This document shows positions 5,943-47,186 of a DNA stretch of 64,000 nt, one piece after another (position 1 is the first letter of the stretch; each line of letters opens with the position of its first letter). The stretch covers positions 6,262,001 to 6,326,000 of the forward strand of contig OX597834.1 of NCBI GenBank assembly GCA_951406725.2, read 5' to 3'. This stretch comes from Octopus vulgaris (lineage: Eukaryota). The notes beneath the pieces were generated by a model, which ran no database searches, was not told where the DNA came from, and was given only the letters and a program-made list of their open reading frames with translations. The position numbers were made by a program, and so were the translations under genes.

Positions 5943-6282
5943 ATCATCATCGTTTAACGTCCGTTTTCCATGCTAGCATGGGTTGGACGGTTCGACCGGG
6001 ATCTGGGAAGCCAGGAGGCTGCACCAGGCTCCAGTCTGATTTGGTAGTGTTTCTACGGCTGGATGTCCTTCCTAACGCCAACCACTCAATGAGTGTAGTG
6101 GGTGCTTTTTATGTGCCACTAGCACAGGTGCCAGACGAGGCTGGCAGCGGCCATGATTGGTTTGTGCTTTTTGTATGCCACCGGCACGGAAGCCAGTCAA
6201 GGTGGTGCTGGCATCGACCACGTGTGGATGGTGCTTTTTACGTGCCACCAGCACAGGTGCTAGGGGAGGCTGGCAACGGCCC
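5943..6282 (-). mobile_element. RTE LINE 3'UTR fragment (family D)
   Basis: Repeated GGCACGTAAAAAGCACC units, GGTTGGCGTTAGGAAGG, and a CGTTAAACGATGATGAT tail. Linked to an RTE C-terminal coding segment at 37255-37385. Confidence 0.75.
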
Positions 6283-7086: not shown

Positions 7087-7135
<49 letters not shown>

Positions 7136-7140
<5 letters not shown>

Positions 7141-7645
7141 AAGTCAAATTGCGATAAAATAAAATTAATTATTATCGCTGGTATTTCTAGCACAAGCCAT
7201 ATATTATTCATATATCAGTACATTAAGGCGAAATATGTGCTAGAAACACAGAAGCTAGATAAATTTAGTGAAATGAAAATAAAAACATTTACTAACTCGG
7301 TTCCTCTTAGACTGCAGTTTCGTTCTTTTCAGCAATAAAGATAATTTATTTGCTCAGGGAGAATTCATCGGTAAGAGCCCTGTTGTTCTGAGATCCTAAC
7401 TCACTAGAAGCATGTGCTTCTAATGATTTGCTCTCTCTAACTAATCAGATCACTGCGCAGACTCAGAACGTCCCGACAAAACTAGGGATTTCTGGTATAT
7501 TGTCTAACGCTCAAAATTTATCGAGAAATATGTAAACAAGTCAAATTGCGATAAAATAAAATTAATTATTATCGCTGGTATTTCTAGCACAAGCCATATA
7601 TTATTCATATATCAGTACATTAAGGCGAAATATGTGCTAGAAACA
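7136..7645 (-). mobile_element. Retrozyme/PLE-like partial tandem: 397-bp monomer plus 113-bp terminal direct repeat
   Basis: 7136-7248 is identical to 7533-7645. Flanked by (TA)n. Contains a hammerhead at 7304-7377. Confidence 0.7.
7304..7377 (-). ncRNA. Type I hammerhead ribozyme (CCGAUGA core variant)
   Basis: Minus strand: ctctta-CCGATGA-attct..agcaa..ttgct..agaac-GAAA-CTGCAG-TC-taagag. 6-bp stem I, palindromic stem III ACTGCAGT, GUC site. Confidence 0.7.
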
Positions 7646-8099
7646 TATATATTAGGCTTTAAAAAGAGCCGTTATTGTTGGTTTCCTTGTCCTGTTTTTA
7701 TTCTTTATTTGTACTGTTTTTTTCTTCATTTGTATTGCTTTTACGTCCTGTTCTTGTCACTTTTTTTACCCCTCTGCAAAAGAATTTTATTTAATTCATT
7801 TTGCAGGAAGGACTGTTTCGGCCAGATCGTGTTCTGCCCTTACCTTCGAAACACGCATTGAGTCGAAACAGGGGCAGCTGAAGAAGGGGAATATTCCTTG
7901 TGTTGTTTGTCTTGTACTCTGTTTTTTTGTTGTTAAAAAAAGTCCTTTTCCTTGTTTGATTTTATGTTTTCATTTCTTGTTGTGTTCTACGTTTATTTGT
8001 GGTGTCCTGTACTCATATATGCATGTATATATATACATACAGATGTAGGTGTGTACATATATGTATGTATGTATGCATATGTTTTATTTATTAAATTGT

Positions 8100-9814: not shown

Positions 9815-10225
9815 GGAGTTAGCACCAGTGGCACGTGACCTGCTGTGCTTGAGGATCCCTATTGAGTCAAGTACATCAACATCAAAATAAATATCAAATG
9901 GAAATTGTAGTTGTGATCCCTGTGCTGGTCGCATGTAAAAAGCACCATCCGAACGTGGCCGATGCCAGTGCCACCTTGACTGGCTTCTGTGCTGGCAGCA
10001 CGTAAAAAGCACCAACCGATCGTGGCCGTTTGCCAGCCTCCTCTGGCACCTGTGCCGGTGGCACGTAAAAAGCATCCACTACACTCACGGAGTGGTTGGC
10101 GTTAGGAAGGGTATCCAGCTGTAGAAACTCTGCCAGATCAGACTGGAGACTGGTGCAGCCTCCTGGCTTCCCAGACCCCGGTCGAACCGTCCAACCCATG
10201 CTGAGATGGAAAACGGATGTTAAAC

Positions 10226-16914: not shown

Positions 16915-17476
16915 ATCACAATCACAATCAAAATCAAAATCAAATTCGATGACTGGCGTCCGTGCTGGCAGGGTGCAAAGAGCACCATACGAGTTTGATC
17001 ATTGACACAGCGGCTAACCGGCTTCAGTGCCAGTGGCACTTAAAAGGCACCATTCGAGCGCGATCGTTACCAGCATCACCTTGTTGGCACTTGTGCCCAT
17101 GGTAGTAGGGTGCCAAGAGCACCATCCAAGCATGATCGTTGCCAGAGCAGCTAACTGGCCTCCGTGCCGGTGGCATGCAAAAGACACCATTCGAGCGTGA
17201 TTGTTACCAGTATCGTCTTACTGGCACCTGTGCCAGTGGCATGTGTAAAAGATTCAAGTGAAGTCGTTGCCAGTACCGTCTGACTGGCCCCGGGCTGGTG
17301 GCATGTAAAAGCACCACTCTCGGAGTGGTTGGAGTTAGGAAGGGCATCCAGCTGTAGAAACTCTGCTAGATCAAGATTGGAGCCTGGTGCAGCCATCTTG
17401 TTTGCCAGCTCTCAGACATTCGTCCAACCCATGCTAGCATGGAAAGCGGACGTTAAATGATGATGATGATGATGAT
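16915..17476 (+). mobile_element. RTE LINE 3'UTR fragment (family D variant)
   Basis: Family D repeats and (GAT)n tail. Confidence 0.7.
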
Positions 17477-20610: not shown

Positions 20611-20820
20611 GTGTGTATAAATAATTCTAAGATAAGACAGTGATTTCAAAGTTTTGGCCAGGTATACTTTTATCAGCAGTCTAATGACTTATTTGGATGA
20701 AGCTTTGAAGTTACTGTCAACGACATTCTTGTTTAAGATTAATAAACTTGTACTCTACAAAAGTATTGAGTAACCCATCAGATTAACGTAAAATTGTTAT
20801 TATTATTATAAATGGTCGCA

Positions 20821-21651
20821 GGCACATGGCTCAGTGGCACATGGATCAGGAGGCACATGGCTCAGTGGCACATGGATCAGAAGGCACATGGCTCAGTGGA
20901 ACATGGATCAGAAGGCACATGGCTCAGTGGCACATGGCTCAGAAGGCACATGGCTCAGTGGAACATGGCTCAGAAGGCACATGGCTCAGTGGAACATGGC
21001 TCAGAAGGCACATGGCTCAGTGGAACATGGCTCAGAAAGCACATGGCTCAGTGGAACATGGCTCAGTGGTACATGGCTCAGAAGGCACATGGCTCAAAAG
21101 GCACATGTCTCAGTGGAACATGGCTCAGTGGAACATGGCTCAGAAGGCACATGGCTAAGAAGGCACATGGCTCAGAAGGCACATGGCAGGCACATGTCTC
21201 AGTGGAACATGGCTCAGTGGAACATGGCTCAAAAGGCACATGGCTCAGAAGGCACATGGCTCAAAGGCACATGTCTCAGTGGAACATGGCTCAGTGGAAC
21301 ATGGCTCAGAAGGCACATGGCTAAGAAGGCACATGGCTCAGAAGGCACATGGCTCAAAAGGCACATGGCTCAAAAGGCACATGTCTCAGTGGAACATGGC
21401 TCAGTGGAACATGGCTCAATGGTACATGGCTCAGAAGGCACATGGCTAAGAAGGCACATGGCTCAGAAGGCACATGGCTCAAAAGGCACATGTCTCAGTG
21501 GAACATGGCTCAGTGGAACATGGCTCAGAAGGCACATGGCTAAGAAGGCACATGGCTCAGAAGGCACATGGCTCAAAAGGCACATGTCTCAGTGGAACAT
21601 GGCTCAGTGGAACATGGCTCAATGGTACATGGCTCAGAACGCACATGGCTC
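20821..21651. repeat. 15/16-bp minisatellite (GGAACATGGCTCAGT / GGCACATGGCTCAGAA) with higher-order patterning
   Basis: About 50 units directly visible. The overlapping repetitive ORFs in all three frames are by-products. Confidence 0.95.
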
Positions 21652-35653: not shown

Positions 35654-36252
35654 AGGCGGTGAGCTGGCAGAAACGTTAGCACGCTGGGCGAAATACTTAG
35701 TGGTATTTCGTCTGCCGCTACGCTGAGTTCAAATTCCGCTGAGGTCGACTTAGCCTTTCATCCTTTCGGGGTCAATTAAATAAGTACCAGTTACGCACTG
35801 GGGTCGATGTAATCGACTTAATCCGTTTGTCTGTCCTTGTTTGTCCTCTCTGTGTTTAGCCCCTTGTGGGTAGTAAAGAAATAGGTATTTCGTCTGCCGC
35901 TACATTCTGAGTTCAAATTCCGCCGAGGTCGACTTTGCCTTTCATCCTTTCGGGGCCGATTAAATAAGTACCAGTTATGTGCTGGGGTCGATGTAATTGA
36001 CTTAATCCGTTTGTCTGTCCTTGTTTGTCCTCTCTGTGTTTAGCCCCCTTGTGGGTAGAAAAGAAATAGGTATTTCGTCTGCTGCTACGTTCTGAGTTCA
36101 AATTCTGCCAAGGTCGACTTTGTCTTTCATCCTTTTGGGGCCGATTAAGTAAGTACCAGTTATGCATTGGGGTCAATATTATCGACTTAATCTATTTGTC
36201 TGTCCTTTTTTGTCCCCTCTGTGTTTAGCCCCCTTGTGGGTAGTAAAGAAAT
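35654..36252 (+). mobile_element. SINE family B tandem trimer
   Basis: One full unit followed by two headless units of about 186 bp, joined at GGTATTTCG. Confidence 0.85.
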
Positions 36253-36698: not shown

Positions 36699-37728
36699 AA
36701 AATTAGTGTCATCAGAAAAATTAACAAAGCTAACTTACAAGAAGACCATCATCATCATCATCATCATCATTTAGCGTCCGTTTTCCATGCTAGCATGGGT
36801 TGGACGGTTCAACTGGGCTCTGGGAAACCAGAAGGCTGCACCAGGCCCAGTCTGATCTGGCAGTGTTTCTACGGCTGGATGCCCTTCCTAATGCCAACCA
36901 CTCCATGAGTGTAGTGGGTGCTTTTTACGTTCCACCGGCACAGGTGCCAGGCGAGGCTGGCAACGGCCGCAATTGGATGGTGCTTTTTACATGCCACCAG
37001 CACAGGGGCCAGGCAAGGCTGGCAATGGCCACGATTGGCTAGCGGTTGAGCTTACGTGCCACCGGCACTGGTACCACAGCTACAATTTCCATTGATGTTG
37101 ATTGATTTCGATTTTGATTTTGATTTTCACTTGCCTCAACAGGTCTTCACAAGTTGAGTTTTGTGTCCCAAGAAGGAAAGGTATGCATAAGTGGACTGGC
37201 TACATCCCATGTAGAGACCACAGGTTATGGTCTCACTTGTCCTGCTGGGTCTACTCATGCACAGCATACTTCCAAAGGTCTCGGTCTCTAGTCATTTGCT
37301 TGGTGAGACCTAAAGTTCGAAGGTCGTGCTTCACCACCTCTTCCCAGGTTTTCCTTGGTCTGCCTCTTCCACTGGTTCCCTCAACCGCTAGCCAATCGTG
37401 GCCATTGCCAGCCTTGCCTGGCCCCTATGCTGGTGGCATGTAAAAAGCACCATCCAATTGTGGGCGTTGCCAGCCTTGCCTGGCACCTGTGCCGGTGGCA
37501 CGTAAAAAGCACCCACTACACTCACGGAGTGGTTGGCGTTAGGAAGGGCATCCAGCCGTAGAAACACTGCCAGATCAGACTGGGCCTGGTGCAGCCTTCT
37601 GGTTTCCCAGAGCCCAGGTGAACCGTCCAACCCATGCTAGCATGGAAAGCGAATGCTAAACGATGATGATGATGATGCTGATCTTCTTGTAAGTTAGCTT
37701 TGTTAATTTTTCTGATGACAATAATTTT
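36699..37728. repeat. Inverted duplication around an RTE 3' end
   Basis: 36699-37050 is the reverse complement of 37380-37728. The centre encodes on the minus strand GRGRPRKTWEEVVKHDLRTLGLTK.MTRDRDLWKYAV. Confidence 0.85.
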
Positions 37729-38504
37729 TCACACAATTATCTTCATCCATTATAATTAAAGAAAGCATTTTATAAGATTCGAACTGAAGATTTAACTTGG
37801 GTTTACAATTCTAAATTCATTTACTCTTTGATTAGGTATACTTATATTAGTCCCTGCCAATTAGTCTCATATTTTAAAATTATTGAGTTAGGCTTGGGGA
37901 TACTGATTCTAATTGGTTTCAGCTTTGGAACCAATTAATACTTTGGAGTCATTAGGTTTAAGTTGTTAATCATTCTAAATTAAACCAGGTTCTAAAATTT
38001 TAATTTCTCAGCAGTTAGCATTTAATACCTCTGGATTTGTTGAATTCATATTATATTAACAGAAGAAAAAAACGCAAGAAAACAAAATCTTAAGATTCTT
38101 ATGTTGAAGAATAAAAAGATTTAGTTCAATTACAATTAACATATTTAATTCAATTAATTCTAAAAAGGTAAAAGTAAAAGTTATGCTGCGAGAAAAACAG
38201 TGTTAATAAATGGCTAATATTATTTTAATTATTTCAACAACTTCAGACTTATTCTGACCTTCTCAGCAAACATCAACAACTTGCACACACATACACACAC
38301 ATACATATGCAGATTCATGTGCATACCTTTATTATGAGACAGATTCACATAAACACGGTCAGTGCAGTTTTAGTTCATCTAACCAAGATATTTAATCGTT
38401 GGAAATGCCTACAAAATTTCAACATGCACTTAATTCAATAACCTTGTGTTTAAATGAGTTACACACATGCAACAATTACAAATGGTTATCAAGGATTACC
38501 TCAC

Positions 38505-39518
38505 GGGACATTTAGATGCTTTAGCGACCATTCACTTTATCAGCCACTGTTGAACTGAAAACAATTACTTGTACGCTACTACGGAACATTTAGATGCTTT
38601 AGTGACCATTCACTTTATCAGCCGCTGTTGAACTGAAAATAATTACTTGTACACTACCATGGGACATTTAGATGCTTTAGTGACCATTCACTTTATCAGT
38701 CACTGTTGAACTAAAAACAATTACTTGTACACTACCACGGGATATTTAGATGCTTTAGTTACCATTCACTTTATCAGCCGCTGTTGAACTAAAAACAATT
38801 ACTTGTACACTACCATGGGATATTTAGATGCTTTAGTGACCATTCACTTTATCAGCCGCTGTTGAACTGAAAACAATTACTTGTACACTACCACGGGATA
38901 TTTAGATGCTTTAGTGACCATTCACTTTATCAGCCGCTGTTGAACTGAAAACAATTACTTGTACACTACAACGGGATATTTAGATGCTTTAGTGACCATT
39001 CACTTTATTAGCTGCTGTTGAACTAAAAACAATTACTTGTACACTACCATGGGACATTTAGATGCTTTAGTGACCATTCACTTTATCAGCCGCTGTTGAA
39101 CTGAAAACAATTACTTGTACACTACCACGGGACATTTAGATGCTTTAGTGACCATTCACTTTATCAGCCGCTGTTGAACTGAAAACAATTACTTGTACAC
39201 TACCACGGGACATTTAGATGCTTTAGTGACCATTCACTTTATTAGCCGCTGTTGAACTAAAAACAATTACTTGTACACTACCATGGGATATTTAGATGCT
39301 TTAGTGACCATTCACTTTATCAGCCGCTGTTGAACTGAAAACAATTACTTGTACACTACCACGGGACATTTAGATGCTTTAGTGACCATTCACTTTATCA
39401 GCAACTGTTGAACTGAAAACAATTACTTGTACACTACCATGGGACATTTAGATGCTTTAGTGACCATTCACTTTATCAGCCACTGTTGAACTAAAAACAA
39501 TTACTTGTACACTACCAC
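38505..39518. repeat. 78-bp tandem repeat, 13 copies
   Basis: Unit GGGACATTTAGATGCTTTAGTGACCATTCACTTTATCAGCCGCTGTTGAACTGAAAACAATTACTTGTACACTACCAC starts at 38505, 38583, 38661 ... 39441. Confidence 0.95.
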
Positions 39519-46559: not shown

Positions 46560-47186
46560 TATCCGAAGACCCGGCAAGACTAGTCAGGCCATAACCCATG
46601 GCCCCTACCTGGGACGTAGTCAGTCCACCTGTGCATACCTTCCTTCTTGTGACACTTGTGAAGACCTGTTGAGGCAAGTGAAAATCAAATCAAAACAAAT
46701 CAAAATAGATGAACATCAATGGAATTTGTATCTTTGTGGTACCAGTGCCGGTGGCACGTGGCACACAAGAAAACCATCTGAACGTGGCCGTAGCCAGTAC
46801 CGCATCGACTGGCCTCCGTGCTGTGGGCACGTAACAAGCACCATCCGATTGTGGCCGTTTGCCAGCCTCATCTGGCACCTGTGTCGGTGGCACATAAAAA
46901 CACCATCCGAGTGTGGCCGTCTGCCAGCTCGTCTGGCACCTGTGTCGGTGGCACATAAAAAACACCGTCCGAGCGTGGCCGTTTGCCAGCCTCGTCTGGC
47001 ACCTGTGTCGGTGGCACATAAAATCACCCACTACACTCTCGGAGTGGTTGGCGTTAGGAAGGGCATCCAGCTGTAGAAACACTGCCAGATCTGACTGGAC
47101 TGGTGCAGCTTTCGGGCTCCCCAGACCCCAGTTGAACCGTCCAACCCATGCTAGCATGGAAAGCGGACGTTAAATGATGATGATGA
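46560..47186 (+). mobile_element. RTE LINE 3'UTR (family D) with about 60-bp internal tandem units
   Basis: Family motifs. GTGGCCGT.TGCCAGC.TC.TCTGGCACCTGTGTCGGTGGCACATAAAA occurs three times. Confidence 0.8.

What the first reader, a model, noticed from the sequence alone, without database searches (positions are those of the whole stretch)
7136..7645. 397-nt monomer plus 113-nt terminal repeat with one hammerhead: candidate circular-RNA retrozyme
Seen: an exact 113-bp direct repeat with period 397, one hammerhead per monomer (minus strand 7304-7377), no ORF, and (TA)n on both sides. An 11-bp hairpin (TTTCTAGCACA/TGTGCTAGAAA) lies inside the repeat. Established: metazoan retrozymes are tandem units of a few hundred nt that self-cleave to monomers and circularise. 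Inference: a 1.3-mer is what reverse transcription around a 397-nt circle would leave. Identity of the two repeat copies suggests a recent insertion.
Basis: partly seen in the sequence, partly recalled or inferred. Interest (0 to 1): 0.75.

Follow-up and report, generated by a model that had tools for sequence, protein, structure and literature searches.

The report
Young hammerhead retrozyme with self-cut footprint
This is one young copy of a protein-free jumping repeat, a known kind in animals, that carries a predicted self-cutting RNA; its copies all start at one fixed point in TA microsatellites and unusually often stop at the predicted cut site, which likely records the RNA cutting itself before a borrowed Penelope-type enzyme copied it into DNA.

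Summary
In detail: an exact 113-bp repeat at period 397, one type I hammerhead on the minus strand, no gene. The locus is a 1.28-unit copy of a dispersed family with at least 201 exact end-junctions, from about 20 nt to 28 units long. It is a new member of the animal non-LTR retrozymes.

Ends are not circularly permuted. The RNA 3' end is fixed in (TA)n and the 5' end varies, as Penelope-type internal priming would leave. 5' ends pile up in the 9 nt ending at the predicted cut: 15 of 76 against about 2.5 expected, and 3 of 23 against 0.7 in held-out loci. Units within one insertion match each other (1281 of 1295 diagnostic sites) and the cut junction is always precise, which fits a circular template without proving one.

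This copy has one hammerhead, with a U4C core variant, so it cannot release a monomer alone. A young intact TA-targeting Penelope-like element is a candidate helper but shares no DNA with it. No RNA evidence was obtainable. The scan has noted similar families on other DNA, in this and other genomes.

The parts
7136..7645 (-). Retrozyme insertion, 1.28 units (510 bp); RNA sense is the minus strand
7136..7532 (-). Full 397-bp unit; 7136 is the family-wide fixed RNA 3' end (inferred start of reverse transcription)
7533..7645 (-). Partial second unit (113 bp, identical to 7136-7248); 7645 is this copy's own 5' truncation point; 7533 is the internal unit junction
7304..7377 (-). Type I hammerhead: stem I 7377-7372 with 7309-7304; core CCGAUGA 7371-7365 (U4C variant); stem II 7363-7360 with 7326-7323 around a long loop; GAAA 7321-7318
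7311..7318 (-). Palindromic stem III/loop III, predicted to pair between two ribozymes (dimeric hammerhead)
   Evidence: intermolecular duplex -12.5 kcal/mol, no stable single hairpin
7309..7310 (-). Predicted self-cleavage site (after C of GUC; unit phase 174|175)
   Evidence: GUC in 110 of 113 distinct hammerhead contexts
7301..7309 (-). Unit phases 166-174, where the 5' ends of family copies pile up
7184..7246 (-). Hairpin with 11-bp arms (7184-7194 / 7236-7246); the inner 8 pairs are largely kept across the family, the outer pairs are not
7094..7137 (.). (TA)22 microsatellite at the fixed end (inferred target)
7646..7652 (.). 7-nt TA remnant at the variable end
7653..8099 (.). Neighbour, not part of the element: truncated copy of an older, abundant repeat with DNA similarity to sequence beside Penelope-like ORF remnants

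Best explanation
The locus is a young, 5'-truncated 1.28-unit copy of a dispersed 397-nt hammerhead repeat family (an animal non-LTR retrozyme) that was likely inserted into a (TA)n microsatellite by a borrowed Penelope-like reverse transcriptase/endonuclease, priming at one fixed internal site of an RNA that the hammerhead likely cuts in vivo. Steps: (1) inferred: multi-unit loci are transcribed on the minus strand. (2) Inferred from the pile-up of 5' ends: the hammerhead, probably as a dimer through its palindrome, cuts after GUC and gives linear monomers and oligomers. (3) Inferred from the literature and from within-insertion homogeneity: some monomers are ligated into circles. (4) Inferred: the helper nicks (TA)n and primes at unit phase 1, which lies 174 nt from the cut on the template, not at an RNA end. 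(5) Shown as a pattern: synthesis stops at variable points. Cut linear templates would end it at or just short of the cut, and circles would let it run past one unit, giving 1.x-mers like this one and multimers. This copy has one hammerhead and cannot release a monomer by itself.
For: Fixed end with a dinucleotide repeat (TA in nearly all rows) in 166 of 169 independent insertions; (TA)3 within 30 nt of the variable end in 155 of 168. Lengths of the 94 subfamily-A junction copies: 67 under 1 unit, 23 of 1-2, 3 of 2-3, 1 over 3. 5' ends in phases 166-174: 15 of 76 ends at phase >=100 among 141 junction-selected insertions, against 2.3-2.6 expected; scan P 0.0005. Held-out set with the window fixed beforehand: 3 of 23 against 0.69, P 0.033. 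Four copies end exactly at 174. No gap at the cut site in 0 of 114 full units. Units within 2-3-unit loci agree at 1281 of 1295 diagnostic-site comparisons, and 9 of 12 multi-unit loci form their own clade or identical pair. Stem I has one compensatory change, U-A in 43 and C-G in 24 of 67 loci; sister subfamilies have the canonical CUGANGA core. Fourteen intact 771-781-aa RT + GIY-YIG frames were found among the loci fetched, 95-99.7% identical to one another, with elements ending in (TA)n. Internal priming at AT-rich targets is shown in vitro for a lizard Penelope-like element (PMC11167929). Circles are shown for coral, mussel and axolotl retrozymes (PMC7229834).
Against: No RNA, cleavage or circle was observed. 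The pile-up could be RT pausing at the folded stem I: 10 of the 18 ends lie at 166-168, just before the stem, and these are also TA-microhomology positions. The held-out replication is weak (3 events), and 6 further ends lie at 175-185, past the cut. L116 carries GUG in place of GUC in both units, which a circle made by hammerhead cleavage cannot give. Two 'private' alleles shared within arrays turned up in other loci once more were sampled, and some dispersed units are identical to array units, so linear array transcripts remain possible templates. The candidate helper shares no detectable DNA with the family, and no convincing hammerhead was found in it. The window's core is U4C, reported to lower activity considerably in vitro (PMC3088659 passage). 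The hammerhead fold is not the predicted minimum-energy structure of the circle.
Confidence: 0.7

Rival explanations
1. No covalent circle. All templates are linear (array transcripts, or 1.x-mer transcripts), and multimers arise by homology-guided template switching between the terminal repeats or by later DNA-level duplication and conversion. The hammerhead only trims 5' ends.
For: L116 has a dead cut site plus three other private changes in both units. The 28-unit array shows block duplication, with identical or sister units 10 apart. Array units are identical to dispersed units (L155/L298/L314; L154/L339). Ends at the cut also occur in the second unit, where a circle's ribozyme would already be paired with cDNA (pooled 8 of 33 second passes against 10 of 110 first passes, P 0.034). 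L003 jumps from phase 170 to 262.
Against: After discounting undersampled or doubtful cases, about 11 variants in 8 of 60 short multimers are still shared by both units and unseen elsewhere, plus 3 in L304. The cut junction has no indels in 114 units. The 28-unit array carries an allele found in no dispersed copy, so it is not their master.
Confidence: 0.2
2. The hammerhead is a passenger. It folds and stalls the reverse transcriptase but rarely cuts, at least in the U4C lineages, and the family spreads on uncut transcripts.
For: U4C core and an A-C mismatch at the base of stem II. The pile-up is weaker in the U4C set (6 against 1.6) than in the mostly CUGA set (9 against 0.7). Hammerhead mutants did not affect insertion by the lizard element in vitro (PMC11167929). 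Eight of nine predicted frog retrozymes did not cleave in vitro (10.64898/2026.07.22.740005).
Against: Eight of 18 pile-up ends lie inside stem I up to the cut, four exactly at it. The compensatory change in stem I. GUC is kept in 110 of 113 contexts. Only one of 40 subfamily-diagnostic sites falls in phases 175-231.
Confidence: 0.08
3. The copies are 5'-truncated terminal repeats of an unsampled coding Penelope-like element, or plain satellite DNA moved by DNA recombination.
For: Retrozymes resemble Penelope pseudo-LTRs in frogs (10.64898/2026.07.22.740005). Only 40 of 695 candidates were scored in the DNA search.
Against: No contiguous Penelope-like ORF in 176 family loci; the three with ORF remnants have them 0.9-1.8 kb away. 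Long copies continue only head-to-tail. A single fixed end in (TA)n with variable 5' truncation is not what unequal crossing-over leaves.
Confidence: 0.02

Closest known systems
Animal non-LTR retrozymes (Cervera and de la Pena 2020, PMC7229834; mussel 350-390-bp repeats, axolotl 330/350-bp repeats)
   Same: Non-coding, low-GC tandem unit of a few hundred bp, one type I hammerhead per unit, monomers to long arrays, co-occurring Penelope-like elements; weak palindromic stem III as in amphibian ribozymes that work as dimers.
   Different: Circular and linear RNAs were shown there, not here. This family has a long stem II loop, a mismatch at the base of stem II and a U4C core in several subfamilies. 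The fixed priming site, TA targeting and 5'-end pile-up at the cut were not described in the parts I read.
Vertebrate non-LTR retrozymes as non-autonomous Penelope derivatives (Li, Clavereau and Pollet 2026, 10.64898/2026.07.22.740005)
   Same: Dispersed monomers plus dimers and multimers; co-occurrence with endonuclease-bearing Penelope-like elements. By their definition (two hammerheads) this locus is an inactive 'solo' copy of an active family.
   Different: There many families match a pseudo-LTR of a known element; here no DNA similarity to the young helper candidate was found.
Penelope/Poseidon element PAc of the green anole (Frangieh et al. 2024, PMC11167929)
   Same: AT-rich target, reverse transcription starting inside the RNA at a fixed site, variable 5' truncation, hammerhead near the start site.
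   Different: PAc encodes its protein and has two start sites that give the optional tail. This family has one start, no tail and no inverted arm in 170 rows checked. For PAc no RNA reads began or ended at the hammerhead cut; here genomic 5' ends cluster there.
Neptune/Nematis-type Penelope-like elements (Craig et al. 2021, PMC8557442, passages)
   Same: The helper candidate in this genome has the DKG motif, a C-terminal GIY-YIG domain, a CX4CxxC linker and (TA)n ends.
   Different: Clade assigned from motifs only, no tree. The link to this family rests on shared target and similar age, not on sequence.

Membership tests
Animal non-LTR retrozyme | Short (150-450 bp) non-coding unit, GC under 50%, in head-to-tail repeats | tested here: met
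   397/396-bp units, arrays of up to 28
Animal non-LTR retrozyme | One type I hammerhead per unit | tested here: met
   Rfam RF00163 E 5.9e-5, below gathering score; 236 pattern hits; stems 96% paired with one compensatory change
Animal non-LTR retrozyme | No LTR-type fixed ends at both sides | tested here: met
   One fixed end, one variable end; PBS/PPT not searched for
Animal non-LTR retrozyme | Dispersed multi-copy family showing retrotransposition | tested here: met
   94 + 107 exact end junctions on many chromosomes; 5' truncation; re-copied bits at the 5' junction in 16 of 168
Animal non-LTR retrozyme | At least two hammerheads at a locus able to release a monomer | tested here: not met
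   Not met for this locus (one hammerhead); met for the family in 19 of 169 insertions
Animal non-LTR retrozyme | Self-cleavage of the RNA | tested here: inconclusive
   Only indirect: 5'-end pile-up at the cut
Animal non-LTR retrozyme | Expression as linear and circular monomer RNA | not testable with these tools
   No run on record as RNA, contigs only
Autonomous Penelope-like element | RT + GIY-YIG ORF contiguous with the repeat | tested here: not met
   None in 176 loci or in the window
Penelope-type insertion footprint | Fixed internal 3' start at an AT-rich target with variable 5' truncation | tested here: met
Penelope-type insertion footprint | Optional 30-40-nt tail and inverted 5' arm | tested here: not met
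   No real opposite-strand arm (4 weak hits, internal palindrome or AT-rich) and no alternative start in 170 rows; junction-selected sets cannot show a second start, the hammerhead-selected loci could and did not
Plant LTR retrozyme | Type III hammerhead in two LTRs with fixed ends | tested here: not met
   Type I fold; repeat length varies between copies

The most novel reading that the evidence does not exclude
The 5' ends of the genomic copies are a fossil record of hammerhead self-cleavage in vivo, U4C variant included. The working template is a self-cut or nicked circle whose two ends are held together by the ribozyme's stem I, so the Penelope-type enzyme either stops at the cut or crosses it precisely and goes round again. 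That would explain at once the single-monomer multimers, the indel-free junction and the stops at the cut in both the first and the second pass.
Probability: 0.25. Interest if true: 0.62.

Novelty: new member of a known kind. Interest (0 to 1): 0.38.

Why it matters
Animal retrozymes are known, but how they return to DNA, and what the hammerhead does during Penelope-type mobilisation, is proposed rather than shown: PMC7229834 hypothesises circles as templates, and PMC11167929 found the hammerhead dispensable in vitro. This family gives exact, testable coordinates: one priming site, one cut site 174 nt away, a pile-up of insertion ends at that cut, subfamilies with canonical and U4C cores for comparison, and a young intact helper candidate in the same genome. 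If confirmed, insertion ends could serve as a general genomic read-out of ribozyme activity in vivo. The locus itself is an ordinary truncated copy.

Tried and rejected
RNA evidence: no RNA holder listed. The laid runs were contigs with guessed labels, so they show neither strand, ends, level nor circularity. One contig that 'goes back 399' (run X7) fits a tandem transcript, a circle or DNA equally. The empty-site test in other individuals failed because contigs break at the TA runs.

Circular permutation of ends: rejected. The 113-bp repeat as a functional LTR: rejected, its length varies between copies. Two-armed or twin-start insertions, a lead from earlier scan notes: not found.

The 11-bp hairpin as a conserved element: only the inner 8 pairs persist, and one outer pair is intact in 24 of 67 loci. 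My first count of it was one base out of register and was redone. A highly folded circle as a family trait: z -3.0 for the window unit but -1.1, -0.4 and -2.7 for three others (60 shuffles), so not relied on. A higher stop rate on the second pass: 7 of 26 against 8 of 81 but only 1 of 7 against 2 of 29 in held-out loci, so treated as weak. My quick lineage labels misassigned several loci and are not used.

Sequence link to the helper candidate: none. An exact parent locus: the closest cut-to-cut monomer differs from the window unit by 1 base (L007); none is identical. One search used a mis-registered structure string and was redone. The second region was not the array intended, so the array at L328 (5 or more units) was not extended. 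The scan's earlier findings by sequence gave nothing.

Paper searches (listings only unless named) showed no cephalopod retrozyme and no report of insertion ends at a hammerhead cut. The library lacks many subscription papers, and supplements, which may list such families, were not seen.

Full report
Observation. The 113-bp repeat is exact at 7136-7248 and 7533-7645, period 397. Rfam finds a type I hammerhead on the minus strand at 7377-7304 (29.4 bits, E 5.9e-5; under the gathering score of 34, so absent from the gathering scan). Its core is CCGAUGA...GAAA...GUC, a U4C variant, with an A-C mismatch at the base of stem II and a palindromic stem III that is predicted to pair only between two ribozymes (-12.5 kcal/mol as a duplex). 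The predicted cut is between 7310 and 7309, unit phase 174|175 counted from 7136. No gene lies in the element. The left flank is (TA)22; the right flank has only 7 nt of TA before another repeat.

Family. A search of the window's own genome (G000, 2.8 Gb) gave 63 matches from 40 scored of 695 candidates, one of them identical over 510 bp on another chromosome. Exact patterns found 94 end-junctions of the window's subfamily, 107 of a sister group and 236 hammerheads, with reversed controls at 0. From 175 rows I dropped 3 duplicates and 3 rows whose first unit was missed, and re-entered 1 false chain by hand, leaving 169 independent insertions. The RNA-sense 3' end is the same base in essentially all, abutting a dinucleotide repeat in 166 of 169. 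The 5' end varies from about 20 nt to 28 units and is followed by (TA)3 in 155 of 168. No copy continues into a coding element (176 loci). No inverted arm or second start was found. So the 113-bp repeat is this copy's truncation point, and the ends are not circularly permuted.

Ribozyme across subfamilies. Units fall on a ladder of subfamilies up to about 10% apart. Of 67 loci with a full unit, stem I has U-A in 43 and C-G in 24 at one pair, a single compensatory event. The C-G subfamilies carry canonical CUGANGA. A divergent group with CCGA joins the tree at the CCGA subfamilies, so U4C may be the older state, but the tree is unrooted. A passage in PMC3088659 reports a natural U4C variant with much lower activity in vitro that still permits viroid infectivity. 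GUC is kept in 110 of 113 distinct contexts.

Footprint of cutting. Among 141 junction-selected insertions (94 + 47), 15 of the 76 5' ends at phase 100 or more fall in phases 166-174, against 2.3 expected by life table or 2.6 with microhomology weights; scan P 0.0005. The window was chosen after seeing data, so I fetched 55 further loci as a held-out set. Of these, 52 were usable (1 irregular, 2 ran off the edge), and 3 of 23 ends fell in the window against 0.69 expected, P 0.033. Over all 169 insertions, 18 ends lie in 166-174 (10 at 166-168, 8 at 171-174, 4 exactly at 174) and 6 at 175-185. The simplest reading is a template whose 5' end was made by the hammerhead, trimmed by a few bases at TA microhomology. 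Pausing at the folded stem I is the alternative. The excess is 3.7-fold in the U4C set and 13-fold in the mostly canonical set. An apparent higher stop rate on the second pass did not replicate clearly.

Circle or not. For a circle: units within 60 loci of 2-3 units agree at 1281 of 1295 diagnostic-site comparisons, 9 of 12 multi-unit loci group by locus, and no unit of 114 has a gap at the cut junction. Sixteen variants were shared by the units of one locus and seen nowhere else. Discounting one found later in other loci, three from an undersampled group and one likely alignment shift, 11 in 8 loci remain; the added loci test the window's own lineage poorly. Against a circle-only model: L116 has GUG in both units, the 28-unit array shows DNA-level block duplication, and some dispersed units equal array units. 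A mixture of templates is the best fit. Only 19 of 169 insertions have two hammerheads; the window copy has one and cannot release a monomer alone.

Helper. A GIY-YIG search gave 148 matches (150 scored of 6136). Among the loci fetched, 14 hold intact 771-781-aa frames with RT and C-terminal GIY-YIG domains, 95-99.7% identical to one another. They have DKG and CX4CxxC motifs that PMC8557442 passages assign to Neptune/Nematis, and they end in (TA)n with or without a tail of about 40 nt. This element shares target and youth with the family but no DNA, so the partnership is inferred.

RNA. No run on record as RNA holds the sequence; the contigs laid cannot decide expression or circularity.

Comparison with what is known. 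The family meets the sequence-level definition of animal non-LTR retrozymes (PMC7229834, parts 2-4 of 6 read; 10.64898/2026.07.22.740005, parts 1-3 of 5 read). Its ends match the internal priming shown for PAc (PMC11167929, parts 1-2 of 4 read). PMC8557442, PMC3088659 and PMC7761336 were seen as passages only. No supplements were seen. The searches named under Tried and rejected showed no report of insertion ends at the hammerhead cut, but the library is incomplete. Earlier notes of this scan describe other hammerhead retrozyme families in this and other genomes, several with two-armed insertions and one with the same U4C core. They are unchecked AI notes and are not counted as support. That the host is a cephalopod comes from my recall of its repeats and from those notes, not from a call that names it.

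Verdict. A real feature and a new member of a known kind; the locus is an ordinary young truncated copy. What lifts it is the family-level pile-up of insertion ends at the ribozyme cut, which makes the role of the hammerhead in mobilisation directly testable. Interest 0.38.

Noticed in passing
window 7653-8099; loci L219-L238: Truncated copy of an older, abundant non-coding repeat (3915 candidates, best relatives about 95%), tandem in some copies, with DNA similarity to sequence beside Penelope-like ORF remnants (L255, L283). Its orientation and any ribozyme were not resolved.
   Followed up: partly
L264-L279, e.g. L267:344-5590: Young, intact, about 5.2-kb two-ORF Penelope-like family (479-aa ORF1, 781-aa RT-EN, about 500-bp pseudo-LTR) ending in (TA)n with or without a tail; no convincing hammerhead found in it.
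   Followed up: partly
run X5 contig 17; L151:1501-1528: A 1425-nt, high-depth contig joins element 7243-7528 to host sequence that occurs once in G000 with no element beside it: an insertion polymorphism near a gene start or a chimeric contig.
   Followed up: partly
L152-L153 (G000:C5, 112.64-112.65 Mb): 28-unit array with canonical cores and signs of block duplication at 6- and 10-unit spacing.
   Followed up: partly
L116: 1.95-unit copy with four private changes in both units, including GUC to GUG at the cut site.
   Followed up: partly
L003, L168, L166, L305: Copies with internal jumps or deletions (e.g. phase 170 to 262 in L003), and 16 of 168 insertions with short re-copied element pieces at the 5' junction.
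   Followed up: no
window 35702-36252, 38502-39518, 20820-21651: Three-copy 185-bp array (resembles a common SINE-like repeat, recalled), 13-copy 78-bp minisatellite and a 16/31-bp array.
   Followed up: no
window 6093-6281, 9919-10074, 16970-17243, 36917-37513, 46826-47023: Several short arrays of a 62-67-bp dispersed repeat unit.
   Followed up: no
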